Positions 3,345 through 64,000 of a DNA stretch of 64,000 nucleotides are shown here, piece after piece. The notes under the pieces were generated by a model, which was not told the origin of the DNA, made no database searches, and saw nothing but the letters and a program-made list of their open reading frames with translations. The stretch spans positions 16,060,001 through 16,124,000 of the forward strand of contig CM075989.1 in the NCBI GenBank assembly GCA_038087875.1, written 5' to 3'. Each line of letters starts with the position of its first letter. Position 1 is the stretch's first letter. The translations under genes and the position numbers were made by a program. This DNA is from Malacoraja senta (taxonomy: Eukaryota).

Positions 3345-3490
3345 GGTAGACACAAATGCTGGAGTAACACAGCGGGACAAGCAGCATCTCTGGAGAGAAG
3401 GAATGGGTGACGTTTTTGGTCAAGACCCTTCTTCAGACTTTGATTTACCTTCGATTTAAACCAGCATCTGCAGTTCTTTCCTGCAAATTA
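3345..3490. mobile_element. Penelope-derived terminal-repeat module
   Basis: Family sequence with a degenerate hammerhead core on -; TSD CAATTCACTA at 3335 and 3491. Confidence 0.7.
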
Positions 3491-4192: not shown

Positions 4193-5183
4193 TTATGGAG
4201 AGTGAAACTCAAATGAAAATGCTGGAAATAGTAATTATCATAGAGTCATACAGCACAGGAACAGGTCCTTCTGTCCACCAAGTATGTGCTGACCACCAAG
4301 CACTCATATCTGAGCATACTACTGAAGATTCGTCAAACTGATCGGTCGAAGAGCACGACTATTTCTTACATTGTACCTCGGTCATGGAGCCCCTGCACAG
4401 GATCAGACACCCGGTAACAGTGAGAGGCAGCACAAAATCTGGTAAGATCGTTGGGGCACTTGTCAACAAGATGAACGTTTGGGGCTCCATTGCTTTGCAT
4501 CATAGGCCTGGCCACGCCGCGGCGTTACGCAGCACTACCTCTGAAGCACGTGATCTGCTTTTTACACCTCGCCCTGGTCTGGTAGCTGTTTGAGGCATTT
4601 AATATTCATGCACTTGCAAAACATGAAGGCTTTACTTTATTTCAAAATTATATTCTCAGCAGATGGCACCATCAGGAAGTCTTTGGCACGGTGAGAAATG
4701 CCAAACTTCGCTGTCAGTGAAGCTGGCAATAATTCTTCGTGGATTTTATTACTTGCAAAGCCTCACTTGCAGAGTTATTTATCGTATCTCAAGTCTGTTC
4801 TTCCGTTTAGCACATTTTCTCATTAGGGCATTTGGGAAGGTATGTGTGGGAACCCACGAGTCCTCCGGGTGATGGAAACCAATAGGTTTTGATTTATAAA
4901 AGCTATTACCAGTTCACATTAGCATCCGGTGAGACTAGCTGTTTGTAAGATATTGTAATGATTGTGCATGCGTACTAGATATTGCACTTCGGGGCTCAGA
5001 TATCAAGAGGGAGTGTCCTTTCATAGCTCCGACCTCAATGCTGTCACCACATCGCACGCTCACCCCCGAATCTACCCCTTCACCAAACCCCCTCCTGGTA
5101 CTCATTCACACCTTAGATACACTGCACTATCTTCCAGCAGCCTACTGCTGGTATGCCAAGTGTATGGCTTCACTCTGCGATGT

Positions 5184-5383
5184 NNNNNNNNNNNNNNNNN
5201 NNNNNNNNNNNNNNNNNNNNNNNNNNNNNNNNNNNNNNNNNNNNNNNNNNNNNNNNNNNNNNNNNNNNNNNNNNNNNNNNNNNNNNNNNNNNNNNNNNNN
5301 NNNNNNNNNNNNNNNNNNNNNNNNNNNNNNNNNNNNNNNNNNNNNNNNNNNNNNNNNNNNNNNNNNNNNNNNNNNNNNNNNNN
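5184..5383. other. Assembly gap
   Basis: 200 consecutive N. Confidence 1.
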
Positions 5384-5415
5384 CTCTTTCAGTGGCTTTC
5401 CTGTGCGATTCTAAT

Positions 5416-5745: not shown

Positions 5746-7305
5746 ATAACCATATAACCATTACAGCACGGAAACAGGCCATCTCGGCCCTTCAAGTCCG
5801 TGCCGAACACTTTTTTAAATTATTTTTATTATTTATTTATTTATATATATTTTTTATTTAGTCCCATCTACCTGCACTCAGACCATAAACCTCCAGTTCC
5901 TTTCCCGTCCTTATACCCATCCAATCTATTTTTAAAGGATAAAATTGAACCTGCCTCCACCACTTCCACTGGAAGCTCATTCCACACAGCTACCACTCTC
6001 TGAGTAAAGAAGTTCCTCCTAATGTTACCCCTAAACTTCTGTCCCTTAATTCTCAAGTCATGTCCCCTTGTTTGAATCTTCCCTACTCTCAATGGGAAAA
6101 TTTTATCCACGTCAACTCTGTCAAACCCGCTCATAATTTTAAAGACCTCTATCAAGTCCCCTCTTAACCTTCTGCGCTCTAAAGAATAAAGACCTAACTT
6201 GTTCAACCTTTCTCTGTAACTTAGATGCTGAAACCCAGGCAACATTCTAGTAAATCTCCTCTGTACTCTCTCTATTTTGTTGACATCCTTCCTATAATTA
6301 GGCGAATAAAATTGTACTCCATACTCCAGAATTGGCCTCACCAATGCCTTGTACAATTTTAACATTACATCCCAACTTCTATGTTCAATGCTCTGATTTA
6401 TTAGGGCCAGCACACCAAAAGCTTTCTTTACCACCCTATCTACATGAGATTCCACCTTCAGGGAACTATGCACAGTTATTCCTAGATCCCTCTGTTCAAC
6501 TGCATTCCTCAATTCGCTACCATTTACCATGTACGTCCTATTTTGATTTGTCCTGCCGAGATGTAGCACCTCACATTTATCAGCATTAAACTCCATCTGC
6601 CATCTTTCAGCCCACTCTTCCAAATGGCCTAAATCTCTCTGTAGACTTTGAAAATCTACTTCATTATCCACAACACCACCTATCTTAGTATCATCTGCAT
6701 ACTTACTAATCCAATTTTCCACACCATCATCCAGATCATTGATGTACATGACAAACAACAGTGGACCCAACACAGACCCCTGAGGCACCCCACTAGTCAC
6801 CGGCCTCCAACCTGACAAACAGCCATCCACCATACTCTCTGGCATCTCCCATTCAGCCACTGTTGAATCCATCTTGCTACTCCACCATTAATACCCAACA
6901 ATTGAATCTTCTTAACCAACCTTCCATGAGGAACCTTGTCAAAGGCCTTACTGAAGTCCATATAGACAACATCCACTGCTTTACCCTCATCAATTTCCCT
7001 AGTAACCTCTTCGAAAATTCAAGAAGATTAGTCAAACATGACCTTCCAGGCACAAATCCACGTTGACTGTTCCTAATCAGACCCTGCTTATCCAGATGCT
7101 TATATATATTATCTTTAAGTATCCTTTCCATTAATTTGCCCACCATTGACGTCAAACTAACAGGTCTATAATTGCTAGGTTTACTCTTAGAACCCTTTTT
7201 AAACAACGGAACAACACTGCGCAGTACGCCAATCCTCCGGCACTATTCCCGTTTCTAATGACATTTGAAATATTTCTGTCATAGCCCCTGCTATTTCGAC
7301 CATTT
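5746..7305 (-). mobile_element. CR1/HER1 LINE, 5'-truncated, RT domain with frameshifts
   Basis: ORFs 6877-7206 (NYRPVSLTS) and 5868-6872 (GVPQGSVLGP, YADD); (GGTTATAT)n tail. Confidence 0.95.
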
Positions 7306-10271: not shown

Positions 10272-11615
10272 CATAGAGTGATACAGTGTGGAAACAGGCC
10301 CTTCAGCCCAACTCGCCCACACCGGCCAACAATGTCCCAGCTACCCTAGTCCCACTTGCTTGCACTTGGTCCATATCCCTCCAAACCTGTCCTATCCATG
10401 CACCTGTCTAATTGTTTCTTAAACGATGGGATAGTCCCAGCCTCAACTACCTCCTCTGGAAGCTTGTTCCATACACCCACCACCCTCTGTGTGAAAAAGT
10501 TACCCCTCGGATTCCTATTAAATCTTTTCCCCTTCACCTTGAACCCATGTCCTCTGGTCCTCGATTCCCCTACTCTGGGCATAAGACTCTGGGCATCTAT
10601 CCAATCTATTCCTCTCATGATTTTGTATACCTCTATAAGATCTCCCATCATCCTCCTGCGCTCCATGGAATAGAGACCCAGCCGACTCATCCTCTCCCTA
10701 TAGCTCACACCCTTTAGTCCTGGCAACATCCTCATAAATCTTTTCTGAATGCTTTCAAGCTTGACAATATCTTTCCTATAACATCATGCCCAGAACTGAA
10801 CACAATATTCTAAATGCGGTCTCACCAACGTCTTATACATCTGCAATATGACCTCCCAACTTCTAAACTCAATACTCTGACTGTTGAAGGCCAAAGTGCC
10901 AAAAGCCTTTTTGACCACCTTATCTACCTGCGACTCGACCTTCAAGGAACCATGCACCTGTACTCCTAGATACCTCCACTCTACAACACTACCCAGAGGC
11001 CTACCATTTACTGTGTAGGTCCTGCCCTTGTTAGACGTCCCAAAATGCAACACCTCACATTTTTCTGTATTAAATTCCATCAACCATTCCTCAGCCCACA
11101 GGCCAATCGATCCAGACCCTGCTGCAATCTTTCATAACCATCTTCACCATCTGCAAAACCACTCACTTTTGTATCATCAGCAAACTTGCTAATCTTGCCC
11201 TGTATGTTCTCATCCAAATCATTGATGTAGATGACAAACAGTAACGGGCCCAGCACCGAACCCTGAGGCACATCGCTAGTCACAGGCCTCCAGTCCAAGA
11301 AGCAACCTTCCACCATCACCCTCTGCTTCCTTCCATCGAGCCAATTTCCTATCCATTCAGCTATCTCTCCCATGCGATCTAACCTTCCAGAGCAGCCTAC
11401 CATGCAGAACCTTGTCGAATGCCTTACTGAAGTCCATGTACGCAACATCTACAGCTCTGCCCTCATCGACCTTTTTGGTCACGTCTTCAAAAAAATCAAT
11501 CAGATTTGTGAGACATGACCTCCCACATTCAAAACCATGCTGACTATCCCTAATCAGCCCTTGCCCATCCAAATGCCTGTATAACCTATCCCTCAGAATA
11601 CTCTCCAGTAACTTA
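10272..11615 (-). mobile_element. CR1 LINE, 5'-truncated, frameshifted RT
   Basis: DFSKAFDKV, VPQGSVLGP, FADD and RPHLEYCVQFW across ORFs 10346-11572. Confidence 0.95.
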
Positions 11616-12214: not shown

Positions 12215-12612
12215 GGTTGTAACATTGAATTCTCCAATATTAGGTCATCTCTAACAAACCTTCCTGCCCCTCCCCTTCTTCCCCCACATGCTCCTTTCTG
12301 CACCCCTTCCCTAACTCGCACACTCCACTCTCCCTCCACTTACATTCCTTCCTCTGGCTTCACAATTCACATCTCTTCAATCCTTTTGTCTCTGGCCTTT
12401 GTCCAACCATCTGCCTATCAGTAACCCTCCTCGCCTCTGTTCACTTACTACTTGCCAAGCTTTGTTTTGCCCCTCGTCTCTCCCAGCTTTCTTCATCTCC
12501 CCCCCCCCCCCATAATCAGTCTGAAGAAGGATTCCGACCCAAAGTGGCACCTATCCCTGTTCTCCAGGGATGCTGTCTAACCCTCGGAGTTATTCCAGCA
12601 CTTTGTGTCTCT
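12215..12612 (+). mobile_element. Penelope-like element 3' end
   Basis: Degenerate end of the endonuclease ORF (AACATTGAATTCTCCAAT), pyrimidine tract, CAGTCTGAAGAAGG terminal module. Confidence 0.65.
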
Positions 12613-14107: not shown

Positions 14108-14362
14108 TAGGTAGATACAAAATGCTGGAGTAAATCAGCGGGACAAGCAGCATCTCTGGAGAGAAGGAATGGGTGACGTTTTGGGTCGAGACCCTTCTTC
14201 AAACTGATATCAGGGGAATGGGCGGGAAAGAGATAGAATGTAGTCGGAGACAGTGCGACTGGTGGGAGAACTGGGGAGGGGGAGTGGAGGGAGAGGGGAT
14301 GGAGAGAGAGGGAAAGCAAGGGCTATTTGAAGTTAGAGAAGTCAATGTTCATACCGCTGGGG
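14108..14362 (-). mobile_element. Penelope-like element 3' end
   Basis: Minus strand reads PSGMNIDFS, then a pyrimidine tract and the terminal module. Confidence 0.75.
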
Positions 14363-14427
14363 TTGAGGTCAATGGCCTTATTTAGCTTCACATCATCGAG
14401 AGAGAAAAATATTTCGATTTTGACTTA

Positions 14428-15619: not shown

Positions 15620-16382
15620 AGAGTCATAGAGTGATACAGCATGGAAACAGGCCCTTCAGCCCAACTTGCCCACACCGACCAACATGTCCCAACCACACTA
15701 GTTCCACCTGCCCACGTTTGGTCCATATCCCTCCAAACCTGTCCTGTCTATGTACCTGTCTAACTGTTTCTTAAATGTTGGAATGCCTCAACTATCTCCT
15801 CTAGCAGCTTGTTCCATGCACCCACCACTCTTTATGTGAAAAAGTTACCCCTCAGATTCCTATTAAATCTTTTCCCCTTCACCTTAAACCTATGTCCTCT
15901 GATCCTCGATTCAAGAGACTCTGTGCATCTACCCGATCTATTCCTCTCATAATTTTACACACCTCAATAAGATCACCCCACATCCTCCTGCGCTCCAAGG
16001 AATAGAGTCCCATCCTACTCAACCTCTCCCTATAGCTCAGTCCCTCTAGCCCTGGCAACATCCTTGTAAATCTTCTATGTACCCTTTCCAGCTTGATAAC
16101 ATTTTTCCTATAACATGGCACCCAGAACTGAACACAATACTCTAAGTGCGGCCTCACCAACTCCTTATACAACTGCAACATGACCTCCCAACCTCTATAC
16201 TGACTGATGAAGGCCAATGTGCCAAACACCTTTTTGCACACCCTATCTACCTATGACTCCACCTTCAAGGAACCATGCACCTGCATCCCTAGATCCCTCT
16301 GCTCTACAACACTCCCCAGAGCCCCAACATTCACTGTGTAGGTCCTGCTGCAATTTTTCACAACCATCTTCACTATCTGCAC
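15620..16382 (-). mobile_element. CR1 LINE 3' fragment
   Basis: ORF 15879-16241 LVRPHLEYCVQFW...GLYSLERRR. Confidence 0.9.
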
Positions 16383-19719: not shown

Positions 19720-19980
19720 TGCTCAGCGGGTGAGGCAGCATCTATGGAGAGAAGGAATAGGCGACGTTTTCGATCGAGATCCTTCTTCAGACTGATATCG
19801 GGGGATCGGGAAAAAGAAAGGAAGAGACGGAGACAGTAGGCTTGTGGGAGAGCTGGGAAGGGGAGGGAAAGGAGGGAAGACTTCAAAGAAGACCGATCAA
19901 TGAAGGGTCCCAACCCAAAATGGCACATCCATAATCTCCAGAGATGCTGCCTGACCTGTTAAATGATTCCAGCACTTTCT
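19720..19980. mobile_element. Penelope-derived inverted module pair
   Basis: Minus arm (…CCTTCTTCAGACTGA), purine spacer, then plus arm. Confidence 0.65.
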
Positions 19981-24404: not shown

Positions 24405-24830
24405 TAGTTTAGTTTAGTTTAAATATACAGCATGGAAACAGGCACTTCGGGTCATTGAGTCCACACCAACAAATGATCACCCAGTCTGGAAAAAAGTCTC
24501 GACCTGAAGCGTGACCAGTCTAAAGAAGAGTCTCAACCCGAAACGTCACCTATTCCTTCTTTCCAGAGATGCTGCCTGTCCCGCTGAGTTACTCCAGCTT
24601 TTTGTGTCTATACCCGTTCACACTAGTTCTATGTCACCCCAGTATCACATCCTACAAATTAGGGGCAATTTAGAGAAGCCAATTAACCTACAATCCTGCA
24701 CGTCTTTGGATTGTGGGAGGAAACCGGAGCACCCGGAGAAACCCTGTACAAACTCCATACATGTAGTCAGGTTCGAACCCAGGTCTCTGGCGCTGTAATG
24801 CAGCAACTCCACCGATGTGCCACTGTGCCG
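24405..24830 (-). mobile_element. HE1/V-SINE-like SINE interrupted by a Penelope module (about 24482-24612)
   Basis: SINE sequence resumes after the insert. Confidence 0.8.
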
Positions 24831-28641: not shown

Positions 28642-29077
28642 ACAGTGAGTGAATGTTGTTCTATGACCAATCCCTGGACGTGGAGATAAGGAGGTTGCAG
28701 AAGGACAGGCTCAGAGATAGACCGTGAGAGGGGAAGAGTGAGCTAAACTGATGGCATTTCCAATTCCGTTGTGAGCGAGAAATGTGACAACATGTCATCA
28801 GGATTGTATCAACGAGAGGCATGGGAGAGAGTCTGAGTCAAGCTGAAAGAAAGAACTTCCTGCATTTATCCCATGGACAGAGGCAAAACCAGGACCATCT
28901 GGTCCTCTTTTGGGATTTATTCACAAGCTTAAATACCTATTGAATACACAGGGTTGGGCAAAACCTTTCGGGGGAGTTCTCGGCACCCGATGGCGCAAAC
29001 TGGGGTAACTAGCTTTGCCACCTACTGGTACATGTTGGAACTACGGTCATCCTCAGATACCAGAATAATTCTCAACC

Positions 29078-29175
29078 TATCTCCTTCGCTCCATAGATGC
29101 TGCTGCACCTGCTGAGTTTCTCCAGCACTTTTGTGTACCTTCGATTTTCCAGCATCTGCAGTTCCTTCTTAAACA
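29078..29175 (+). mobile_element. Truncated Penelope-derived module
   Basis: 14-bp TSD AATAATTCTCAACC at 29064 and 29176. Confidence 0.75.
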
Positions 29176-29394: not shown

Positions 29395-31110
29395 AGAACA
29401 GAGAACAGTACAGCACAGGAACAGGCCCTTCGGCCCACAATGTATGTGTCGAAAATGGCACACCAACTCTTACCTACCTGCCTGGACATATTACACATCC
29501 CTCCATTCCCTGCATATCCATTTGCTTATCCAAAAGTCTCTTAAAAGCCACTAACATACCTGCCTCAACCATCACCACTGATAGCGCATTCCAGGCACTC
29601 GTCATCCACTGTGTAAAAAAAACATCTCCTTTAAACTTTGCCCTTCTCTCCTTAAAGCTATGCCCCCTAGTATTTAATATTTCCATCCTGGGGAAAAAGT
29701 TGACTGTCTACGCCTCTCATAATTTTAATACCTCCATCATGCCCCATCCTAACCTCATCCATCCCAGGGAGAACAGACCTGGCTTCACCAGAGTCTCCTC
29801 ATAACTGATGTGTTCCTTCTGGACAACATCCTGATCAATCTCCTCTGAATCCTTTCCAGAGTGATCACCTCCTCCCAAATCATGGGGTCCAGAACTGCAC
29901 ATGGTTATAAAGTTGGCCCATAACCGCCTTACTTCTATACTTGATGTCTTAACTAATGAAGGCCATTATCATGTATGCTTCCTAAACACATTATCGACCT
30001 GCATTGCCACTTTCAAGATTCTATTGACTTGTATTCCAAGGCCCCTCTGTTACTCAATGCCTTCCAAAGCCCTATCATTCATGTCCTAGCATGACACATC
30101 ACATTTGCCTGGATTAAATTCCATCCACCATTTTTCAGCCCATTTCACCATCAATATAAGGTTATGAGGTGATAAGTGATAGGAGTAGAATTAGGCCATT
30201 CGGCCCATCAAGTCTACTCCGCCATTCAATCATGGCTGATTTATCGCTCTCTCTCCTAACCCCATTCTCCTCCTTCTCCCCATAAACTCTGACACCTGTA
30301 CTAATCAAAAATGTATCTATCTCTGCCTTAAAGATATCCACTGACTTGGCCTCCACAGCCTTCTGTGGCCTAGAATTCCACAGATTCACCACCCTCTGAC
30401 TAAAGACATTTCTCGTCATCTCCTTCCAAAAAGAATGTCCTTTAATTCTGAGGCTATGACCTCTAGTCCTAAACTCTCCCACTAGTGGAAACATCCTCCC
30501 CACATCCACTCTAACCAAGCCTTTCACTATTCTGAATGTTTCAATGAGGTTCCCCCTCATTCTTCTAAACTCCAGCGAGTACAGGCCCAGTGCCGACAAA
30601 CGGTCATCATAGGTTAACCTGCTCATTCCTGGGATCAGGAATATCTCCCTGCAGCCTAAGACTTCTCTCCGCACTATCAACAACTCTGCTAATCTTAGCA
30701 TCTTCTGCAAACTTTCTGATCACGTCTCCCACATCCACAACCAAGTCATTCATATATATCACAGACAGCAAGTGGCCCAGCATCAATCCTTGTTGGACAA
30801 GGAGTTATAATGTGGGACACAGCAGTCAATTCAGATAAACGTGAGGTGTTCAGTTTTGGTAGGACAAACCAGGGCAGGACTTACACAGTAAATGGCAGGG
30901 CATTGGGAGTGCTGTAGAACAGAGAGTCCTTGGGATGCTTGTACCCAGTTGCCTGAAATTGACAATACGGGTAGACAGGGTGGCGAGGAAGGTGTTTGGC
31001 ATCCTTGCTTCATTGGTCATGGTATTGAGCTCATGAGTTACAACTGTAGAAGACATTGATAAGACCACATCTGGAGTACTGTGTACACTTATGGTCACTC
31101 TGTTAAATCT
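29395..31110. mobile_element. CR1 cluster: old minus copy with a younger CR1 (about 30161-30640) nested in it, plus a plus-strand piece (30825-31110)
   Basis: ORF 30162-30710 GLYSLEFRRMRG...SQRVVNLWNS; degenerate RT on both sides. Confidence 0.85.
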
Positions 31111-32445: not shown

Positions 32446-33141
32446 GTAACGTGGAAAATGCAAAGAATGGAAAAGGATTCATGAGATTTTCTCATGAGGG
32501 AAATACACATATTCAAAGACAACACTCTTCAGATTGTTAATATATACTACATTTTGTTGATCAGCACTGCTAACAACCCATCAATGCTTTTAAAAGATTT
32601 TTAGATCAATGTATCTGAAATAAAGTAAATTCATCTGATGACCAGTACAAATCAGGTCAGTCCATGAAGTTAATTGTGTTTTCCCTGTGTACTTAATGGC
32701 TAAAATTCAGCTTATAGACTGATTTACCTGAAATGCTTACCGAAAATGTACATGAGGTTGTGTTAGTTATTTCTAAGTCATATCTAAATGCATTCAGTGT
32801 TTAAGTTTGCCTTGTCACTGTTTCTTCACCTATATATTGGGAGAAAATCTGCACAATATGAATGTACAAGGAGTCCCTGGTTAATGTAAAGGTTCAGATC
32901 CTGAGAATGATCCGTAAACTGATTTTTCCATGTCATGCAGGTCAGCAAATAGGGTGATCGGCGAGAGGGACTTTGGTGCACGTTGTGATGTGGACAGCAG
33001 GGTTTTGGTTTATCTTTGATCATAGCGCAATGCTGTGTTTTATACTATATTTAATGATATAAAAAGTCCCTGGATGTAGACATCTACTGTCATTCTGTTC
33101 TTTAGTGCATTAACAAAAATACTTGTTACTAAAATTATTAT

Positions 33142-33577
33142 TTAAGAAAGAACTGCAGATGCTGGAAAAATCGAAGGTAGACAAAAATGCTGGAGAAACT
33201 CAGCGGGTGAGGCAGCAGCTATGGAGCGAAGGAATAGGTGACGTTCCGGGCAGAGACCCTTCTTCAGACTGATGTGGGGGTTGGGGGAAGAAGAAAGGAA
33301 GAGGCTGTGGGAGATCTGGGAAGGGGAGTGGAAGGAGGGAGAAAGCAGGACTACCAGAAATTGGAGAAGTCAATGTTCATACCGCTGGGGTGTAAACTAC
33401 CCAAGCAAAATATGAGATGCTGCTCCTCCAATTTGTGGTGGGACTCACTCTGTCCATGGACGAGGCCCTCCACCCCCACATCAGTCTGAAGAAGGGTCTC
33501 AACCTGAAACGTCACCTATTCCTTCGCTCCATAGATGCTGCCTCACCCGCTGAGTTTCTCCAGCATTTTTGTCTACT
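33142..33577 (-). mobile_element. Penelope-like element 3' end with inverted terminal repeats
   Basis: 33467-33351 reads GLVHGQSESHHKLEEQHLIFCLGSLHPSGMNIDFSNFW*, like the C-terminus of the Penelope GIY-YIG endonuclease; inverted arms 33177-33283 and 33469-33576. Confidence 0.8.
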
Positions 33578-33793
33578 GAAATTAATATGGTAGATTTCTA
33601 CAAGCCCACCCAATGATTCACTAACCAAACCAGTTTCCATGAAAAATTCGCCAGATTAAATAGTATTGAGAAATGGAAATGATCAGAATAAAACTGCCCC
33701 ATTTTGCTGAATAACATTCATTTGTTAACTATATAGCCACCCATAACATATCGCTCTGCATAAGCTTCCTATAATTTCACCATTTCATCGAAT

Positions 33794-33928
33794 GAAAGAA
33801 TGAAGAAGGGTCTCAACCTGAAACATCATCCATTCCTTCTCTCCAGAGATGGTGCCTGTCCCGTAGAGTTGCTCCAGCTCTTTGTGTCTATCTCCAGTTT
33901 AAACCAGCATCTGCAGTTCCTTCTTACA
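33794..33928 (+). mobile_element. Penelope-derived module
   Basis: 13-bp TSD CATTTCATCGAAT at 33781 and 33929. Confidence 0.78.
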
Positions 33929-33984
33929 CATTTCATCGAATATCTCTTCAGCCCAGCATGACCAGATTCAGGCTCAGATCAGTT

Positions 33985-34275
33985 TACGGATGTGTACACA
34001 GAGTGCAATGAAATTCCTTAATTGCATGAAGCTCACATAGTAAATAGTACACAGGAAATATAGATACAACAATAGATGCAAGACAAATGCAAAACAGCAG
34101 TGGAAAAAATATTAGCGTCCAACAATGGAATAACCGATTGAGGTAGAGTAAAGAGTAAAAGTTGCTGGTCAAGAGGTCCAGAAGCCAGTTGCAGATGGAG
34201 GCCCTGAGTTGCAGAGTTTACTTGGAATTATGATGTTGAAGGGTGTGCTGTAGACGATGAATCGCATCCTGAATA
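33985..34275 (-). mobile_element. Rex1/Babar-like LINE remnant
   Basis: RMRFIVYSTPFNIIIPSKL...SICNWLLDLLT resembles the Rex1 RT motif (LFIDYSSAFNTIIP); same 3' tail family at about 3655-3745, 9385-9478, 14650-14775, 40790-40960 and 42880-42980. Confidence 0.6.
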
Positions 34276-35848
34276 TGCGCTCTTGATGTCTTAACACATG
34301 TGAAGGTGAAGATGTCAGAATGTAAATAAGCAGAATTTTTTTTGGTTTCATGTTTAACCAAATTTGACAGAAATGGTGCAAGAGTTGTCCCATCCAGTCA
34401 GTGTTAGCCATTGTGGCCAATCAGACCACCTTGGAGAAAAAGAGAAAATCTGAAAGGAATACTGAAAATGTTGACAGTGGTCAGAATGCCAATCAAATCT
34501 TCAATAAAAAAAAGTTAGTTCCACTTCATATGCGGAATCTGCATTAGACTCAAAAGGGGCACTCCACTCTACATTGTTAGGTCATTCATCCTTGGAAATA
34601 TAAGGTTACAAGGAAAAGGCAGGAGAATGGGGTTGAGAATGGAAAATAGATTAGCCATGATCGAATGGCGGAGCAGACGATGGGCTGAATGGCTTGATTC
34701 TTCTATTTCTTATGGTCTTACAAAGGGAGCAGGGTAATTTCTCCAGAATAAGCAAAGAGTGAACGAAAGTTACACATAAATTACATGCACAAAATGAGTC
34801 TCAGGCAGTTACAGCAGAGAGCTCTCCACGCTTGATTTACAGGGAAATTACCCGATCACCACCATTCTGCCTGACAACAGCACTTACTAAATCCTTCTCC
34901 TAAATCTGGTGCCTTTAATTCATTACTAAAGGCATTAGTACAATCACACCACCTCTACGCACAGAATGCACAGGAAGGGCAAATGGTAGTCCACTTAAAG
35001 AATCCAAGGACAAAGAGAAAGGCCATTCAGACATTACACCCATGCTAGCTCTTTGAAAGGTCTAACCAATTAGTCCCAGTTGCATTCCTTCATGGTGAAT
35101 TTGCTATGTTGTTTTTCTCCTTCACTTATTTCTCTAACTCCCTCTTTGAAAGATATCATTGAATTGGCTTCTAACTTTGATTTCCTGAAATTCAGAAAAT
35201 GATAGCCTTTCAGTCAAAATAAATTTCACCTCTGGAGTGATGTGCAGAAGCGTAGATTGGAATCCTGTAAAGAGCCATCTGTGGACAACCAGCAAATCTC
35301 GCTGCTTTATCACACACTGCTGCTGTTTTATGCATACCGAACCTTTATATGCTGCAAATTACATCAATCACGTCGCACTACATGTTGTGACTGAAAACAA
35401 TCGCAATGAAAAATGTTCCCATAGTAACAGCAGTGTGACCTACGAAAAGAAACCTTAAACTAATTAAAATTCATACCCACGACAACAGTGACAGAAGCAA
35501 TGATTTTGTTTGCTGCTGGTATCACCTGTTGTCATTTTGTGTGCACATTCATTACACTTCCTGACCTGTTCAAGGCTTTCTTTCATTTCTTTTCTATAAA
35601 CAGAAAACAGATGGGGAACCAACGGGATGGGTGCATATCCAATTACTAGATTTTGTATCCACATCGGTTTGACAATGTTCATTCATATTTTCAGTGTCAA
35701 AGCAAATAGCCCTACAATATGCACACTTTGTGCAGTTAAATCTGTTTTGTTAAACAGTAAATGCATCTTAAATCCTTTGGCTCTTCACCTCTTAACTCTT
35801 ATCCATTTTTCTCTGCTTCACTAAAGGCTACAAGGTAAAAAGGATGCA

Positions 35849-36510
35849 GGGTGGCGCAGCAGTAGAGTTGCTGCCTTACAGCACCAGAGACCCGGGTTTG
35901 ATTCCGACTATGGATACTATCTGTACAGAGTTCTCCCCGTGATTGTTAAGGGCTTGGACACGCTAGAGGCAGGAAACATGTTCCCGATGTTGGGGGAGTC
36001 CAGAACCAGGGACCACAGTTTAAGAATAAGGAGTAAGCCATTTAGAACGGAGACGAGGAAACACTTTTTCTCACAGAGAGTGGTGAGTCTGTGGAATTCT
36101 CTGCCTCTGAGGGCGGTGGAGGCCGGTTCTCTGGATGCTTTCAAGAGAGAGCTAGATAGGGCTCTTAAAAATAGCGGAGTCAGGGGATATGGGGAGAAGG
36201 CAGGAACGGGGTACTGATTGGGGATGATCAGCCATGATCACATTGAATGGCGGTGCTGGCTCGAAGGGCCAAATGGCCTACTCCTGCACCTATTGTCTAT
36301 TGTCTATTGACTGCATGGGTTTTGTCCGGGAGCTCTGGGTTCCTCCCACATTCCAAAGAAGTACAGGTTTGTAGGTTGATTGGCTTTGGTGAGAATTGTA
36401 AATTGTCCCTGGTGTGAAGAATAGTGCTAGTGTATGGGAATCGCTGGCTGGTGTGGACTTAGAGGGCTGAAATGGCCTCCTTCCATGGTGTATCTCTAAA
36501 CTAAACTAAA
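35849..36510 (+). mobile_element. SINE split by a young CR1 3' fragment (about 35943-36310)
   Basis: SINE ...TTCTCCCCGTGA|CR1 (ORF 35939-36217, (TATTGTC)n tail)|CTGCATGGG... SINE resumes. Confidence 0.88.
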
Positions 36511-37393
36511 AATAAAAGGAATGAAGACAGCGTAAAGCACAAGAATTTTCCCTTTCCCCACCACCCCCAGCCACAACTAGATGAACAAGCCTTGATGTCA
36601 AAGATTCCAAATCCTTCAATTGCCTGGCTGCTTTTGCCCTAAATTGGAAAAGCAGACATTCGAAAAGAAGTGAGATTAAAAGGTAGATCTTTATTTGACA
36701 ATCCAACACTCCAATCTCTAGGCTCTTGAGAAATTCAAAAGATGTCCAGTGTAGCAGTCTGGCCAACTAATGACAGTATTGTTACCTCAGCACCTCTAAC
36801 TTGTCACACCAGTGGTACCATCTGATTCACAATAAGAACTGGTCTTCAGACTGTCTGAAGAAGTGTTTCAACCTGAAACATCACCTGTTCCTTTTCTCCA
36901 TCGATGCTGCCTGACCCATTGAGTTGCTCCAGCACTTTGTGTCTCTCTCTCATGGACTACCAACCTGGCTCCATATCGTAGAGTCATTCAGCAGGGATGC
37001 AGACACATCAGCTCAACTTGTCCACGCTTGTCCAACTGGGCCAAGATGTTAATCCCATTTGTTTACATTTGGCCCATATCCATCTAAACATTTCCTATCC
37101 ATGTACCAGTCTTTTAAATGGTGGTCATAGTACCCGCATCAACTAATTCCTCTGGCAGTTCATTCCATATATCCACCATCCTCTAAGTGAAGGAGTTGTC
37201 TTTCCAACTGGGAATTCCACAGAGTAGAAAATGCTGTGCCTTCTACCACAGCCCATCTCAACCTTGTACAAAGTATTAATACATTGTAACTAAACAATTA
37301 ACAGTTACTAATGTGGATTTAGATATATTATGGCAAGCATTCTGAATTAGGATCATTATTCAAATTTATGTCTTTAAAGCTTTTTATTATAAA

Positions 37394-37489
37394 GTCTGAA
37401 GAAGGGTCTCGACCCGAAACGTCACCCATTGCTTCTCTCCAGAGATGCTGCCTGTCCCGCTGAATTACTCCAGCTTTTTGTGTCTACCT
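37394..37489 (+). mobile_element. 96-bp Penelope-derived module with an intact minimal hammerhead core
   Basis: CTGAAGA-A-GGGT CTCG ACCC-GAAAC-GTC at 37396-37423; 13-bp TSD TTTTTATTATAAA. Confidence 0.8.
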
Positions 37490-38013
37490 TTTTTATTATA
37501 AAATGTATAAATACAGTTTGGCTTCAATTTATTTAACAGTAAAAATAGTGAAAGCTGTCTTAGGAAAACAATATCAAAATGTTTGACTGATGCTTCAAAG
37601 TTTTAATGTGGGACATTTGTGACCAAGTACAAACTCAAAACCATATTTCAATGTCCATGTACATACAATTTCTGTACTGTTTTTTTGGCTCAAATCCCAC
37701 ACTGGAAATTGAGGCACAGAATATACAGATACCTGTGTGGGGCATCAAGAGAAAGCTGCACTCTTATACCAAATATTTATTCTCAAATCAATACTTTGAA
37801 TCTTATGATCAAATTATCTACTTTGTGGCTTTATGAGACATCTTGATCTGAGATATTGTCTATTTCACAATTGATGATGGATCTTGCTGTGCCCCATCTC
37901 AACATGATCACATGGGGCCCGTTAAGTGTTTTGGCCCGTCTTGATGTCATGAAATGAGAGCATTACATTGTTTTTTGACTAAGAATATATTCCCTTCATT
38001 GCTTACTCCACAG

Positions 38014-38247
38014 GTCTTGACCCTGCTGGACCCCTGTTTGAAGGCATGTCATCAACAGAACGTCTATCTCCTGACGATGCAAGCTTCGTCGATGCTCTCC
38101 ACACCTTCACACAGGAGCACATGGGCCTGAGTGTTGGAATCAACCAACCTGTGGCCCACTATGACTTCTATCCGAACGGTGGCACCTTCCAACCTGGCTG
38201 CCACATCACGCACGTGTACAGTCACATCGCAATGTACGGGATTCTAG
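38014..38247 (+). CDS. LIPC: Hepatic lipase exon 5 (catalytic Asp, start of lid)
   Basis: ccacag|[77 protein letters not shown]|gtaggc; 234 bp. Confidence 0.97.
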
Positions 38248-38605
38248 GTAGGCTTTACTTTGACCAAAGTTACATTCTTTCACATTGACAGCAAAATATT
38301 TATATTTACAGTCATCCTATTAATTTCAGGATTAAAGCCAACAGGCAGGAAAACTTTAATCAGATGCAATAGCAAGCATGCGTTTCTTTATAATTACTCT
38401 GCACTCCTAATTATGGGGGCCATTTGCTGCTTAAATAGCATCGCGAGTTGGTCGATGATTGCTTCTGTTCCTGCATTGTCTGACTTCACAGCTATTGTGG
38501 CATCATACATCATCTCCGCAGAAAAGATGACAATTACAATTGTACTAACTTCACAGTGTTCTGGAGATTATTATATCAATTGTTCATTCTTTCATGATCT
38601 CTTAG

Positions 38606-41854: not shown

Positions 41855-42237
41855 GAACACTCTCCAATTCTAGGTAACCTCTGACTCTCCCCCACCCCAA
41901 CCTGGACTCGCACCTATTTCTCTCCTTCCTCAGGCTTCACAATTCACAACTCTTCAATCATTTTGCCCCACATCTTCAGTTTCTGTTTCTCTGGCCTATT
42001 TTGTCCATCCATCAGCGCATCATAAACCCCCTTGCCTGCATTCACTTATCACGTGTCATGCTTTGTCCTGCCCTCCTCTCTTCCAGCTTTCTTCCCACAC
42101 CCTACAATCAGTCTGAAGGGCCTCAACCCAAAATTTCACCTATCCATGTTCTCCAGTGATACTGCTTGACACGCTGAGTTATTCAAGCACTGTGTGTGTT
42201 TTTTGTAAAACAGCATCGACAGTTCCTTGTTTCTACA
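41855..42237 (+). mobile_element. Old Penelope-like 3' end
   Basis: Colinear with 12215-12612. Confidence 0.65.
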
Positions 42238-44212: not shown

Positions 44213-46450
44213 GGAATTTAACACATGGATTAAAACTAATTATTTGGATCAGTAAATACAACGTGGAAATAGCTTGATGTGACATTTATAGAAGGTGTAC
44301 CGAGAAATAACATGAGTCTCATCGTCTGGAAGAGGTTTATTATGAACAAGTATACATCAATCAACTAAATTTCAATTAATATTATATTTTGAAAGATTTT
44401 ATTTCCAAAGATGTGGAAGGGACAAATGTATTTCTAACTATTATGCAAGATTGTAAGTCTGGCTTATGAATGGTGAAACAAATTTAGTTTTGTTTTAAAG
44501 AACTGACACTATTAATGGCAGTAAATTCTCAACTCAGTAAGAGTCATGCCACAAAACAAAAAAAAGATTGACATTAAAAACTGTGGCAAAAATAAATATT
44601 TCTGGAATCAAGCATTTAAATGATTTTAATTCGTTTTAAGAGTATATTCTGATGTTTCACTTGGGAAAATACAAAAGGTAAATGTGAACACCATCCCCCT
44701 AATTTCCACAATGAGTTATAAATCGCATGCCTTTTATTTCTAAATGGTTTAAAAGACATTTAGATGGGTACTAGGAAAGATTTAGAGCAAGAGGTCAAAC
44801 GTGAGCAGGTGGGACTAGTGTAGTTGGTCGGCATGGGAAAGTTGGGCCGAAGGGCCTGTTGCTGTATGACTGTGATCACGTGTTACTGTTCACAACCGCT
44901 CCAAATTTATGGCGGAAAATAAAAATTTAAGTTTTCTATTTGGTATGCTCAAAGACTGGTACAGACTGGTAGTAATTGTTTTCTAAACTGTTACAAAGTA
45001 GATACAATAGAGCTCAGCAGAATGAAACTCAGTGATTAATTCACTTATATTGCCAAATGCTATAGATGAATCAATAATTTGGTTAAAAGAACTCTTGTAA
45101 GATGTTCACACTTTTAAATCTTAGACAATTTATTGTATTACTCCAAAACATCATATCCCAGACACCTACAGAATTTATAATCTGTTTCGGCTGAATGCTT
45201 AACTTTAACAGCTACCAATAAAGAGAACACCAGACTTAATGGGAAATTTGACTGCGTTTAATGTACATCCAAAATCATTTTTGCTCCAGGCAACACACTG
45301 GACTTTATCCTTTGTCTTGTTGTGACAGTAAGATTGATGGGATCACATTTCAACCACAGTAATAGCTTTTAAGTCTCTCACTGATGTCCCATGACCCAGA
45401 ACCACACCAACGGCATCAATAACTAATATAGGACAGGATTAAAATGCAGCCAGTGCTTCTCACTGAATTCCTTAATTAAAATCTGCTAAATGATAAGCCA
45501 TTGCCTCTTGCTGATCCATTTTTCCTCTCCACGTATTTTCAAGCAGATACATTTGTCCCAAGTTTCCATATTAATTTTCAGAGTGAAATGGCCATAGATT
45601 TGTCTTGGATAAATGTCACCAGTTCTCTTTACAGTCTGAAAAAATGTAAATGTGCCCATCAGAGTCCTGGTACAGACAGTTATTATCATTTAAAGCAGGT
45701 GAAGGAAATGCTAAAATTAAATGTTTCACATCCCACACGCTGGGTTTCAGTTCTCTGCATCTGTAAAGATAGAAACCACCGACAATCTGGAGCAACGCAG
45801 GTTTCTTGCTTTTGTAGCACTTGAAGAGTCTGCAGTAACAGATGTCTCATTGCATTGATAATAGTCCAAGTGCTTTGTTCACACTGAAAATAATAGGTCA
45901 AAGGCAGACATCTGCCCAATTCCAATTTCCAGCAAATGATACAAATCCCATACTCCAAATCTAACCCAGTTGAGCACAACTCTTTTCCTAAGACAGGCTT
46001 CACGCTGAGAGAAAATCACATAGGGGTAAAATAGAAACTGCGATTATGTATATATTGCAACATAACATGAGTGAAACGCAGCGAAAAGGGAATTTGAACA
46101 CACTACCGGAGGTGTACTCATCCTTCTGTTGTGTTGTAATGTAGATTGCAAGGACGTCTATCCACATCAGAAACACATATTGGTTGCAACAATTTCTACC
46201 TTAGACTAAGTACCAATCTTAAGAAAATTCTAATTGCAGTTACTGGTATTTCCAAACAGTTTAAGGGTAGATTATCTCGTGCCCACAACAGTGTTGTTCC
46301 CCTCTATAGTTGGGTCGAGTGTGATCCCGAATCAGCTGACATTGCCAGATTAAAAACACTACCGCGATTTTCACGAAGGATCTACAAGAACGTGTGGAAA
46401 CACACAGCGCAAAACTTGCTGATAGTAAACAGACATTTACAATTCCCCAA

Positions 46451-46625
46451 AGATAGACACATAATGCTGGAGTAACTCAGCGGGTCAGGCAGCATCTCTA
46501 GAGAAATGGGGTAGGTGATATTTCGGGTCGAGACCCTTTTTCAGACTGACATTCAGAGAGAGGGAAACTCTTAGTTTTTGTGTCTATCTTTGGTGTAAAA
46601 CAGCATCTGCAGTTCCTTCCTCTAT
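46451..46625. mobile_element. Penelope-derived module between the two 3' ends
   Basis: TSD AATTCCCCAA at 46441 and 46626; core mutated (CTGAAAA). Confidence 0.72.
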
Positions 46626-49214: not shown

Positions 49215-49612
49215 GTCTGAGTCATACAGCACAGAAACAGCTCCTTCAGCCCAAATCGTCCATGTTGACCAAGATGCTCCATCCAAGCTAGTTCTATTTG
49301 CCTGCATTTGGCCCATATCCCTCTCAACGATTCCTATCCATGTAGAAATATGGAACTGCAGATGCGGATTTTGTGTCCCAAAAGACACAAAGTGCTGGAT
49401 CAGGCAGCGTCTCTGGAGAAAATGGATAAGTCAGTCTGAAGAAGGATCCTCCCCCATTTTCACCTATCCACGTTCTCCAGAGATGCTGTCCGACCTGCTG
49501 AGTTACTCCAACACTTTGTGCCCTTTCATATCCATGCACTTGTCCAAGTGGATTTTGAATACTTTTATAGATGCTTCCTCTACTACTTCCTCTGGCACTG
49601 CGTTCCATATTA
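49215..49612 (-). mobile_element. CR1 3' end interrupted by a Penelope module (about 49345-49525)
   Basis: TATCCATG repeated on both sides of the insert. Confidence 0.7.
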
Positions 49613-51978: not shown

Positions 51979-53388
51979 CTAGAATTAAAACAAAAAAATC
52001 TGAATTTCTCCACCACCAAAATCATTAAGCAGGGTGAAATTATTTTATTAACTAAAAGATGAGGGATCACATTACATTTTACAGATGGAAACAACAGAAT
52101 GGAGAAAATTACAGGCTCATGACAATAAAGCTGTACAAAATATGACCAAGATTGAAAACGTGAATGATATAAAATGCTCCAGAACTTTAATGATTTGGTC
52201 TACACCACCACTCATCCCCTCCCCAGCTCCTGTAACAGTGTAAGGCTTTTCCAAGTACAGTCGTTGGATTTGTTTCCTCTCAGCTTGACACCAGAAATGA
52301 AAGTGTTGAACACTCCACCATTTCCATGCCTAGATTATGCTCAGTTTCATGTAATTTTTACTTGCAGTTGAGCACTGTTACCCAGAACTCATGGATTTTA
52401 AGGATGTTTCTAGAGCTGCAGATCATTGGGCCAAAGGGCAAGTTCATTTAAAGATTTATTTTAAACTGAAGCTTAATTATCACATTTTATTATTCCTAGA
52501 TTAATGATTTAATTATTATTTTAGAAGCATATGTTTAATGAAAATGCACATTTTGAGAAATAATTCCAGTGTTTTAGCCGATTTTCAAAGCTTGCATGAT
52601 TGGAACAGGAAAAATGCAAGTTGTGTGGGGACTAACATATTATTATGAGCGGTTACAGACATAGGGAGCAGCATTTAAAAACAAATTACTATTTTATAAT
52701 TGAGTCATTGATCCCAGAGCTTATGCAAGTCACCAGTGGCAGAAAACAAACATTTAGCAATCAAGTGAAGATTTTGAAATAGAGGCAGATGGTAGAATAT
52801 ATGCAAAATGAGTCTGAGTCACTACTTTCAGCACATTACAAAACAAGCCAGAGATCAGCTGCCCAATGTTCTAGGTTTATATTAATGAGGACAAAAGGGT
52901 AAGCAAGAACCAATGGCAAAATATCTGACTAGATATAATTTCTTTTCCCTTCATTTAGTTTCTTTATGAGTACATACAAAGTTATTCTTCAGTCCTTATC
53001 TTAAAATGATCTTTAGTTTAGTTTGGTTGATCTTTCCTCCAGCATTAAAATGGAATTAAATCTGTCATCATTTAGATAATCACAAAAAGCTGGAGCAACT
53101 CAGCGGGACAGGCAGCATCTCTGGAGGGAAGGAATGGGTGACGTTTCGGGTCGAGAACCTTTTTTAGACTGAAAGTCACGGGAAAGGGAAACGAGAGATA
53201 TAGAAGATTTAGATAATCCAGGAGTTGTACCCTTTCCTCAGAAATCACTGCACTTTTTCCCTTCAACAGGAAGAGCCATCTATTCTACTGTAGGTTCAAC
53301 CAAACAGGAGGAAAGCTCACCTAAGTGCATTGTTCATCATGTTGCAATATACCATATATATTTGGTATATATGGAAACGAAACACTAA

Positions 53389-53695: not shown

Positions 53696-53907
53696 TTACA
53701 TTTCTTAAACTGGAACATGTAAAAAAAGCTAGGTTATCTTTAACCAATATTTTTTTTAAAAATCCCAATAATGTGATAGCTAATAATTTATGGACAGAAA
53801 CATGCAGTTTTCTTTAATGTGAAGATCAATTCAGAGATATCATTGAGCCACAAAGTACAGTTGCCAACTGTATTTCCTTGCTACAAAAGAAGCCAAATTG
53901 TACTCAC

Positions 53908-54128
53908 CACAATCCATTCAGCGATATTTTCATAAAGCTCTGGATTAAAGATTGCTTTCTTTAGTCTGGCCAATGGACCATCTGCATCCACAAGTCTACA
54001 TCTATTAAAGACATCACAGTAGCCTTTGAAATCATTACAGGGTGAACCAGGCTGTAGCGAGATGGTGGTGTAATTAAAGTGTTTCTGCCATATCGGCGAT
54101 CCAGTGCTTGCGCATGTTGATGGAGTGT
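53908..54128 (-). CDS. ADAM10: ADAM10 exon 14
   Basis: ttttgcag|[73 protein letters not shown]|gtgagt; 221 bp. Confidence 0.97.
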
Positions 54129-54359
54129 CTGCAAAAAGGACATTAGGGTGAAACATGGCAAGATATCTGAAACCATTCAAGCAGACATTCTACTTCTACC
54201 GTGTTGACCAATTACAGCATTTTGTACTCCCCTCCACAGGTCATGGTATGAACATTGAAGTCTCCAATTTTAGGTAATGCCACCCCTACATCCCCTTTCC
54301 CTTTCACCCGCCACCACCCATGTACAGACACTTTTCTCCCACCCCACAACACCCCAGTC

Positions 54360-61710: not shown

Positions 61711-61919
61711 CATAGGAAAGAACTGTAGATGCTGGTATATACCGAAGATAGACACAAAATGCTGGAGTGACTCAGGGGGTCAGGCAGCATCTCAGGAGAA
61801 AAGGAATAGGCGACGTTTTGGGACGGAACCCTTCTTCAGGCCCTTCCGATCTGAAATGTCACCTATACATTTTCTCCAGAGATGCTGCCTGACGCGCAGT
61901 TACTTCAGCATTTTTGTCG
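61711..61919. mobile_element. Penelope-derived fold-back module
   Basis: Inverted arms; TSD AATTTTCAG(A/G)TTGC at 61697 and 61920. Confidence 0.75.
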
Positions 61920-64000
61920 AATTTTCAGGTTGCTATTGTTCAGATGACAGAAACAAGTATACCTACTGTACAAGGATGGGAACACTACAATTTGAAGGGA
62001 TATATATCCATTAAAAAAGTGCATGTATTCTGAGCAAGAATCTAATTACCTTGCAAGACTTTTTTTTAAACTATTTCCAGATACTCTTATTAACCAATGT
62101 TGAAAGGAAACGGGTTGTACCTTTAAAATGCACATTTATATTTACCCTCTCATTTAAAATCCCATTCCTTCAGGAAAGTAATTGTTTCTAAATGTAAATT
62201 ATTAAACAATAAAATGTATCAGAGGTATTACAGCCCGGGCAGAAGTTCAAAGAGTTGTCATATTTTGTTGCATACTTTTCCCTTATGTGTAATGCGCATG
62301 GCTCATTTTAATGCGGCTATAAACATTCAGCTTTTACATAAAATGTTCATTTCACTACCACAAGTTTTATAAAACTTCAGTTCAATTGTCCAATTTCCAC
62401 AGGTGGCCTTCCTCTTGGGTTCTTTTACGTTTCAGTAGCTTAGGTTTTCTCAGCTACATTTTCCAGGGCACTGTTTTGTTTCCTTGGTGGCTCTATTTCT
62501 TGCCAAGGTTATTCACTGCAATGGGGACCAACGTTTTAAACTGTACTCTATCTGGGCTGGCTACTGACGACATTGATTCTCTTTGGCTCATTAATAATGT
62601 GTTAAGCTCCTCTCCACAAATGTTATTAAAAAAAACCCAACTGTTTCCTAGCAGGATTTAACAGCATTTACCTTCTGGGAAAAAATTGACTGGTTTCACT
62701 GTGAGAAGTGCACAACACAGTTGAGCATTAAATACAAGTATTTTGTATTTACTAGGTATTAAAACAAGACCAAACTTGAGAACAGGCTGTTTAGGAAGAA
62801 AGAGGCCCTAATCCACCAAGCTCAACATCCATTAATTAAGCTCACTGCCTGCCTTTGTGAAATCAATTTGTATACTTCACTACAAAACCTTTACTCCCTT
62901 TGCATACGGTATCTAGTTCATCGTACTCCAGCATATTTAGACGTGTAAAAAAAGGTAGCTGTAACATGCTTTGTGTATTGTTCTTTGCTATTTTAAGTAT
63001 CATGCAAACTAATAATTTAGAACCGAGGGCAGAGTGATCATCAAGTAGGGTGACGTGCGCTATTCCACATCACATGCCCAATGCTGTGATAAGAGAAGCC
63101 TCTTAATTTTTGAGGTCACTGAAGTAATGCAAATTACTTCACAGATCAGTTTAAGAGCATCAGTACCGGGAAGGGCTTAGAAGACAGTGAAATTTCGCAT
63201 TACTGTTTTGACTAAAAAAAAAAGTGTGAATGAGGAAGTCCTTTACACCATTTCCTCCTTTAGACCATGATGTGGAACGAAGGACCTCTTCCTGTGCTGT
63301 ACTCTTCTACGTTCTTCCTCGATCCCTCCCCAAACCCCCTCCTGACTATCCAATTTGATTCCCATGGTGCAGCACAAAAAGGTACTGCCGTCCTTAGCCA
63401 AGGCACTTTGCACTCTAAATTTGGCTGCTGCAGGCATTTGTCTACTGGGCATGGCCCTGACGTTATCAACGTGGTTTATAAACTAAACACTTCAAACTCG
63501 CGTCAATAAATCAAAAGAGATAAAGCACCCAGAAATGTAAACAAACAGCGGGCTACAAAGTTCCATATTTTAACACAAAGTTATTCTAAAGAGGTGCCTC
63601 GAGGTTTACTGATGCAGTTGAGAACTTTTGATTACAGCCTTTGAATCCCCTGTAAATTTTACAATACACATTCCTTTTATTCATTTAGCTCAAAGGATTT
63701 CCTTTGCCTGCTGTGTGTCCGTTTTCCAATCTTGTTAAATGCACAAAACAAATGGAACAATTTCGGATCATATATTTCACAGTGAGCAACAGTCAGAAGC
63801 ACAAGTCCATTACTTCATTAAATCTTTGAAAGTGTTCGCTCGATGCATTGCCACAATGCATTTAATTGATATATAAAGTTAAAGGGCCTAAAAGAGAATA
63901 GTGGCGATAACTTTGGGGCAATGTGCAATAAGCAAATGACACCCGCAGCAGCCAAATTCAGAGTACAAAGTGCCTTGTTTAACGGAGTAAGGAAGGCCTT

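What the first reader, a model, noticed from the sequence alone, without database searches (positions are those of the whole stretch)
37381..37502. Minimal 96-bp mobile unit carrying a hammerhead-ribozyme core, sense to the LIPC pre-mRNA
Seen: CTGAAGA, an extra A, stem II GGGT-CTCG-ACCC, GAAA, then C-GTC at 37396-37423, in a 96-bp insert bounded by a perfect 13-bp TSD in intron 4. Known: CUGANGA...GAAA...NUH is the hammerhead core. A loopless palindromic stem III (ACGU) typifies the minimal, dimer-dependent hammerheads of Penelope-like elements. Inference: this is a non-autonomous ribozyme-bearing unit inserted by target-primed reverse transcription. Caveat: stem I is only about 2 bp (GT/AC), so it may be inactive.
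Basis: partly seen in the sequence, partly recalled or inferred. Interest (0 to 1): 0.72.

Follow-up and report, generated by a model that had tools for sequence, protein, structure and literature searches.

The report
Penelope end-stub with minimal hammerhead
This is a real 96-letter insertion in an intron of a lipase gene of what is probably a skate, one of about 30 look-alikes in the same stretch; it is likely the cut-short end of a Penelope-type jumping gene, and the tiny self-cutting RNA motif it carries is a known kind that is predicted to be inactive here, so it is ordinary.

Summary
In detail: exact 13-bp duplication, 96-bp insert, complete minimal hammerhead core, sense in the lipase intron. 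But it is not a lone unit. The window holds 39 matches in 31 insertions. Sister copies continue upstream into the C-terminus of a GIY-YIG endonuclease that matches skate, ray and whale-shark proteins. They also show the ~35-nt tail and inverted pairs typical of Penelope-like elements (PLEs). The insert is therefore most likely a solo, tail-less PLE terminal repeat (pLTR), probably Neptune-type, carrying the minimal hammerhead described in 2014. It looks inert: stem I is 2 bp, a rival hairpin out-competes stem II (predicted 0.84 versus 0.09), copies show CpG decay and no covariation, and only 3 cores in the window are intact. Contigs of two related organisms, 3-5% diverged, run into the same insert, so it is old. 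Open points: why most copies start at the ribozyme's 5' edge, and a second intact sense core 3.9 kb upstream in the same intron. This scan noted the same family in eight findings on other genomes. Verdict: new member of a known kind, low interest.

The parts
37381..37393 (+). left copy of 13-bp target-site duplication (AT-rich); last base may also belong to the element
37394..37489 (+). 96-bp insert: tail-less solo pLTR of a Penelope-like element; 3 differences from the majority of the 7 closest window copies, none in the core
37394..37425 (+). minimal type I hammerhead: stem I 37394-95/37424-25 (2 bp), C3-A9 37396-37402, extra A 37403, stem II 37404-07/37412-15, GAAA 37416-19, palindrome 37419-22, predicted cut after 37423
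   Evidence: features as in PMC4209133
37404..37427 (+). predicted rival hairpin: 37404-07 pairs with 37424-27 and blocks both stem II and stem I
   Evidence: pairing probability 0.83-0.85 against 0.08-0.09 for stem II
37490..37502 (+). right copy of the target-site duplication; first base may also belong to the element
32446..38013 (+). host intron (GT...AG) between the active-site exon and the next exon of a lipase gene, likely LIPC intron 4
33141..33577 (.). sister insertion showing the parent anatomy: GIY-YIG C-terminus (33488-33351, minus), pyrimidine tract, hammerhead unit (33269-33175, minus), tail to 33141, and an inverted tail-less copy (33484-33577, plus)
33486..33513 (+). second intact sense hammerhead core in the same intron, 3.9 kb upstream
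14109..14367 (-). second sister copy joined upstream to the last codons of the same endonuclease frame

Best explanation
The 96-bp insert is one copy of a very abundant repeat and is likely the truncated, tail-less terminal repeat (pLTR) of a Penelope-like retrotransposon, whose minimal hammerhead is predicted to be inactive at this site. Shown: sister copies join the same unit to the end of a GIY-YIG-like reading frame; 3' ends fall in two classes about 35 nt apart; copies form inverted pairs; target duplications of about 10-14 bp recur. Inferred mechanism: the element's endonuclease nicked AT-rich DNA. Its reverse transcriptase started inside the element RNA at the nearer of two start sites and copied an uncleaved template through the ribozyme. 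It stopped about 96 nt later at the ribozyme's 5' edge, most likely by running off the RNA's 5' end (about 50%; a stall at the pyrimidine tract or a spliced template are the alternatives). The copy has since been a passenger in the intron. In the parent element the motif would cut only as a pair or with the element's protein.
For: 39 matches in 31 insertions, 3,677 bp of the window. The frame upstream of the 33269 copy matches C-termini of skate, ray and whale-shark proteins: 73% to P0001, 68% to P0003, 59% to P0012. [quoted passage not shown] In run X2, 94,781 contigs lay on the 359-bp sister stretch, covering the coding end as well as the hammerhead unit. Of 39 matches, 18 reach the tail, 19 stop before it and 2 are shorter; in 8 of 9 two-armed inverted insertions exactly one arm has the tail, as PMC8557442 describes. 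PMC11167929 reports two internal start sites 30-40 nt apart, AT-rich targets, uncleaved RNA as the main substrate and cleavage only with protein. Inertness: stem I 2 bp in all 3 intact cores, rival fold dominant, active dimer fold -6.1 against -21.1 kcal/mol for the best co-fold; CpG sites mutated 34/132 against 48/506 elsewhere, p=4e-6; covariation score reached by 79 of 500 shuffles. Age: contigs of organisms B and C run from unique flank into the insert.
Against: No reverse-transcriptase-coding sequence or full-length element was found in the window or among longer proteins, so the parent is known only by its 3' end. The Pfam GIY-YIG matches of the three closest relevant hits are below the curated cut-off. 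The focal core is intact although the insertion is old, and non-CpG core positions are slightly less mutated than others (14/198 against 34/308, p=0.16). Folding energies omit tertiary contacts and protein help. The orthologous contigs enter the insert by only 23-29 letters, under the tool's 31-letter bridging rule, and organism B's right junction was not confirmed (41 letters of that contig did not lay). The tight clustering of 5' ends is not what random truncation predicts.
Confidence: 0.85

Rival explanations
1. The unit is an independent non-autonomous element (SINE-like or retrozyme-like) transcribed as its own short RNA and mobilised in trans by a PLE protein.
For: 20-21 of 27 copies that reach the ribozyme's 5' edge lack the upstream pyrimidine tract. 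570-1,079 contigs per run begin at 37394 with AT-rich unrelated flank, and head-to-tail joints of the whole unit and of the 34-39-nt core exist genome-wide; one core tandem is in the window at 24484-24550. bioRxiv 10.64898/2026.07.22.740005 reports PLE-derived retrozymes in its one chondrichthyan genome.
Against: The same unit is attached to endonuclease coding sequence in sister copies and in many contigs. Most copies span the cut site, whereas ribozyme-processed monomers should begin at it: only 2 of 13 internally truncated pieces start within about 3 nt of it (read by eye). No tandem array of whole units in the window.
Confidence: 0.1
2. The hammerhead is active in the lipase pre-mRNA, pairing with the second intact sense core at 33486, and has been kept because it tunes splicing or RNA turnover.
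For: Two of the window's 3 intact cores lie sense in this one intron, 3.9 kb apart, close to the ~3-kb spacing of the two motifs in a full PLE. The insertion is shared by related organisms.
Against: The paired active fold scores -3.5 against -16.2 kcal/mol for the best co-fold, and stem II is predicted at 0.02-0.09 in both copies. At this copy density intact pairs are expected by chance. The focal copy's 3 differences in 96 match the 3-5% drift of the flanks. Published metazoan minimal hammerheads cut weakly even as dimers, and 8 of 9 Xenopus dimers did not cut.
Confidence: 0.04
3. The core is a chance match and the duplication an accident of AT-rich sequence.
For: No Rfam match; the duplication is low-complexity.
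Against: 3 cores against 0.015 expected, and 13 bp against a maximum of 11 in shuffles; the core is the family consensus; at least 5 other insertions have 12-14-bp duplications with at most one mismatch.
Confidence: 0.01

Closest known systems
Minimal hammerheads (min-HHR) in pLTRs of metazoan PLEs, Cervera and De la Pena 2014 (PMC4209133)
   Same: Type I core, no loop III, palindromic 15.2-16.2, extra base between 9 and 10.1, G10.1-C11.1 pair, mostly dispersed solo motifs or opposite-strand pairs from truncated PLEs.
   Different: Helix II is 4 bp (7-8 bp in the Schistosoma families) and helix I only 2 bp (4-5 bp; 2 bp in the Drosophila virilis variant). No covariation among window copies. 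The parts I read and the one supplement searched name no shark or skate.
Neptune-clade EN+ Penelope-like elements (PMC8557442)
   Same: C-terminal GIY-YIG frame ending just before the pLTR, 5' truncation, inverted adjacent copy, 30-40-bp tail on one end.
   Different: RT not found here; the clade-diagnostic linker was seen only in homologous proteins of relatives, not in the window.
Poseidon element of Anolis carolinensis (PAc), Frangieh et al. 2024 (PMC11167929)
   Same: Two 3' end classes a tail apart, AT-rich targets, copies that span the uncut ribozyme.
   Different: Different clade by the linker motif; no ORF was seen starting in the ribozyme here; no biochemistry for this family.
Non-LTR retrozymes of animals (bioRxiv 10.64898/2026.07.22.740005)
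   Same: PLE-derived, non-coding, type I hammerhead, many dispersed monomers.
   Different: Defined by tandem units that each hold a ribozyme; this copy is solo, with a target duplication.

Membership tests
PLE minimal hammerhead (min-HHR) | Conserved core C3-A9, G12-A14, A15.1-U16.1, H17 | tested here: met
PLE minimal hammerhead (min-HHR) | Extra base between 9 and 10.1; G10.1-C11.1; palindromic 15.2-16.2 without loop III | tested here: met
   against PMC4209133
PLE minimal hammerhead (min-HHR) | Helix I of 4-5 bp as in the typical families | tested here: not met
   2 bp in all 3 intact cores; a 2-bp variant is published for D. virilis
PLE minimal hammerhead (min-HHR) | Covariation among genomic copies | tested here: not met
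   22 window copies: score 0.152, 79/500 shuffles as high; genome-wide subfamilies not tested
PLE minimal hammerhead (min-HHR) | Located in a pLTR next to a PLE ORF | tested here: met
   sister copies 33269 and 14204
PLE minimal hammerhead (min-HHR) | Self-cleavage as dimer or with protein | not testable with these tools
   predicted unfavourable
Rfam hammerhead families | Match to a covariance model | tested here: not met
Penelope-like element (EN+) | C-terminal GIY-YIG endonuclease before the 3' pLTR | tested here: met
   44-aa match to C-termini of GIY-YIG-bearing elasmobranch proteins; their Pfam scores are below cut-off
Penelope-like element (EN+) | Telomerase-like reverse transcriptase | tested here: inconclusive
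   none found in window or among proteins of 665-2000 aa; no genome held
Penelope-like element (EN+) | 30-40-bp tail on one end; inverted 5'-truncated partner | tested here: met
   18 tailed, 19 tail-less, 2 shorter; 8 of 9 inverted insertions tailed on one arm
Neptune clade | CX2-5CxxC linker before the GIY-YIG domain | tested here: inconclusive
   present in homologues P0012 and P0022, not readable in the window; also shared with Nematis
Non-LTR retrozyme | Two or more tandem units each with a complete ribozyme | tested here: not met
   solo copy; tandem joints exist elsewhere in the genomes

The most novel reading that the evidence does not exclude
Two intact sense cores 3.9 kb apart in one lipase intron (33486 and 37396) pair through their palindromic stem III into a double hammerhead, helped by a PLE protein or chaperone, and cut the host pre-mRNA. 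Skate genomes, seeded with hundreds of thousands of such half-ribozymes, would then hold a distributed, pairing-dependent RNA cleavage system.
Probability: 0.04. Interest if true: 0.7.

Novelty: new member of a known kind. Interest (0 to 1): 0.2.

Why it matters
As a single insertion it matters little: it is fixed repeat debris of a described class. The family is a useful natural record of how PLEs copy themselves. Two 3' end classes, one-armed tails and clustered 5' ends in very many copies can test the internal-initiation model of PMC11167929 outside the Poseidon clade. It also matters for annotation: the endonuclease end is fused into several skate and ray gene models. If paired cores did cut host pre-mRNA, that would be a new route from transposon debris to RNA regulation, but the evidence points against it.

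Tried and rejected
Rfam at gathering score (whole window) and by E-value (37300-37600): no hammerhead. No genome is held, so no genome-wide count or full-length search. Exact 33-nt pattern in metagenome contigs: 0 hits. Pfam on the 47-aa endonuclease end itself: nothing. Search for long proteins with P0022 residues 240-379: none of 52 candidates passed, weak evidence. tblastn of three homologues against the window: only the endonuclease end. No RNA holder listed on record; contigs cannot show RNA ends. Genome-wide excess of 5' ends at the cut site: none among rows shown (24 of 1,380; 6 of 444), inconclusive. The 37393 hot-spot is partly an artefact of the reference, because every copy that extends further upstream is clipped there. 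An alignment-against-shuffle test for upstream extension was under-powered on low-complexity sequence (3 of 27 flagged; 6 of 27 by pyrimidine content of 0.75 or more). Summed contig depth was not used as copy number. One search crashed and was rerun in simpler form, without the constrained dimer fold. Look-up of earlier findings by sequence: nothing. Literature search on intronic ribozyme cleavage: listing only, not used. Searches for a paper on hammerheads in elasmobranch PLEs showed none by title or abstract; the library lacks most subscription papers, Repbase/Dfam were not available, file 1 of the PMC4209133 supplement was not searchable, and the bioRxiv supplements (which may list this family) are closed.

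Full report
Observation. An exact 13-bp direct repeat (37381-37393, 37490-37502) frames a 96-bp insert; shuffles of the AT-rich flanks (5000 tried) reached at most 11 bp. Each boundary is uncertain by one base, because the repeat's terminal bases also fit the family sequence. The hammerhead core is complete: C3-A9, an extra A, a 4-bp stem II with a 4-nt loop, GAAA, a palindromic ACGT and C17 at 37423. Stem I has 2 bp. My pattern found 3 such cores in the window against 0.015 expected from 200 shuffles. Rfam has no matching model.

Host gene. The insert is on the sense strand of the intron 32446-38013 between two Pfam Lipase exons; an ADAM10 exon lies downstream on the other strand. The name LIPC and the number 4 rest on recalled synteny and on one unlocated first exon. 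The organism is probably a skate or close relative, judging by the best protein matches.

It is one of many. nhmmer with the insert gave 37 rows; a profile including the downstream extension gave 39 matches in 31 insertions, 3,677 bp, on both strands. If the window is typical, that is about 5 x 10^5 insertions per gigabase (extrapolation). In run X2, 94,781 contigs lay on a 359-bp sister stretch. Five other insertions have 12-14-bp target duplications with at most one mismatch (29076, 33801, 3341-3477, 46445-46617, 61718-61922), and two more have weaker ones. Many older copies have none that my script could find.

What the family is. Upstream of the copy at 33269 (minus strand) lie a pyrimidine tract and the last 44 codons of a reading frame; the copy at 14204 keeps the last 14. 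That peptide found 29 proteins at E<=0.001. Of the 10 I looked up by name, 9 are from Leucoraja, Hypanus or Rhincodon and 1 is unnamed; the first hit was a Rhinoraja gene model ending in this sequence. Of 28 scanned, 4 have GIY-YIG matches: P0004 above the cut-off, and P0003, P0012 and P0022 below it. [quoted passage not shown] The RT match in P0003 belongs to a different, fused part and is not evidence for the parent's RT. No RT of the parent was found.

PLE anatomy. 18 of 39 matches run into a ~35-nt tail, 19 stop before it (as the focal copy does) and 2 are shorter. In 8 of 9 two-armed inverted insertions exactly one arm carries the tail (the 33141-33577 insertion is counted as one). Contigs of four runs show the same 3' end classes, inverted joints and tandem joints, and 421 contigs end at the tail's end in AT-rich flank. 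PMC8557442 describes this tail and inversion pattern. PMC11167929 explains the tail by two internal reverse-transcription starts, finds AT-rich targets, and shows that uncleaved RNA is the main substrate and that cleavage needs the protein.

The 5' ends. 27 copies reach the ribozyme's 5' edge; 6 of them continue into a pyrimidine tract by composition (7 with 33484), 3 by a stricter alignment test, so 20-21 appear to begin there. Only 2 of 13 internally truncated pieces begin within about 3 nt of the cut site (by eye). Extended copies read TCAGTC at the edge. That fits an initiator-like start site (motif recalled; Penelope has an internal promoter in its pLTR, PMC2377424) or a 3' splice site, as in D. 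virilis where the intron ends at helix I. I favour run-off from the RNA's 5' end at about 50%; this step is inferred, not shown.

Is the ribozyme active here? Probably not. All 3 intact cores have a 2-bp stem I. In the focal copy the 5' strand of stem II is predicted to pair with 37424-37427 (0.83-0.85) rather than form stem II (0.08-0.09). The double-hammerhead fold scores -6.1 kcal/mol against -21.1 for the best co-fold, and -3.5 against -16.2 for the pair with 33484. These energies ignore tertiary contacts and protein help. Across 22 aligned copies, CpG positions are mutated 34/132 against 48/506 (p=4e-6); non-CpG core positions are slightly but not significantly better kept (14/198 against 34/308, p=0.16); covariation does not exceed shuffles. 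Within the gene 11 copies are sense and 6 antisense (p=0.33), so sense insertions are not purged. Published minimal hammerheads did not cut as monomers and cut weakly as dimers; 1 of 9 Xenopus dimers cut.

Age. I laid 4 of 24 listed runs. Organism C has contigs running from unique flank into both ends of the insert (37154-37419 with 9 differences; 37461-38300 with 37). Organism B has the left junction (37072-37416, 14 differences); its right-flank contig starts at 37489 and 41 further letters did not lay, so that junction is unconfirmed. The overlaps are 23-29 letters, under the tool's 31-letter rule, but same-species contigs break at the same places. The insertion therefore likely predates species 3-5% diverged in this intron, which agrees with its 3 differences from the local majority. 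No empty allele was seen.

Comparison and verdict. It works like, and by core features and location belongs to, the minimal hammerheads of metazoan PLE pLTRs (PMC4209133), with the short helix I of the D. virilis variant; helix-I length and covariation tests were not met, and cleavage is untested. It is not a retrozyme by the tandem definition. My searches listed no paper on this family in sharks or skates, but the bioRxiv preprint includes one chondrichthyan genome and its supplements are closed. Eight earlier notes of this scan on other genomes reach the same reading; they are unchecked AI notes, and my reading was written down before I saw them. New member of a known kind; interest 0.2.

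What I saw of each paper: PMC4209133, abstract, parts 1-2 of 4 and a term search in supplement file 2; PMC11167929, parts 1-2 of 4; bioRxiv 10.64898/2026.07.22.740005, parts 1-3 of 5; PMC6155905, PMC2377424 and PMC8557442, passages only; all others, search listings only.

Noticed in passing
window 24484-24610: Head-to-tail duplication of the 34-nt hammerhead core in front of a full unit; both cores are mutated. Joints of this kind recur in all four runs laid.
   Followed up: partly
window 33270-33320 (minus), 14205-14260 (minus), 12470-12518, 19793-19850 (minus), 42060-42110, 53170-53210 (minus): Pyrimidine tract ending in TCA directly before the ribozyme; looks like a 3' splice site or an initiator. 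Splicing here would change the partner available for stem I.
   Followed up: partly
window 54245-54276 and 12221-12238: Further short remnants of the endonuclease 3' end; no hammerhead unit follows the one at 54245.
   Followed up: no
window 29076-29174 and 49351-49431 (minus): Two copies whose 5' ends fall at about the predicted cleavage site; possible products of cleaved RNA, or chance with microhomology.
   Followed up: partly
proteins P0001, P0009, P0011, P0012, P0022: Skate and ray gene models (named neuromedin-U receptor 1, ATP synthase C3, LAMP3, mucin-2 and others) end in this PLE endonuclease sequence: probable annotation fusions or exonisation.
   Followed up: no
window 37050-37230: Another high-copy repeat just upstream of the insert (very high contig depth), not identified.
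   Followed up: no
window 5868-7242, 10346-11448, 15879-16250, 30162-30719, 35825-36217: Fragments of a LINE reverse transcriptase, CR1/L2-like by recalled motifs.
   Followed up: no
window 2916-3302 (minus): Frame resembling the cysteine-rich C-terminus of a Tx1/L1-type element, by recall.
   Followed up: no
window 53881-54189 (minus): ADAM10 cysteine-rich-domain exon, tail to tail with the lipase gene.
   Followed up: yes
window about 5180-5385: Run of N (assembly gap) seen in the ORF list.
   Followed up: no
run X6 record 32: In organism B the right-flank contig has 41 letters beyond 37489 that do not lay on the insert: a possible indel or different 3' end in that species.
   Followed up: no
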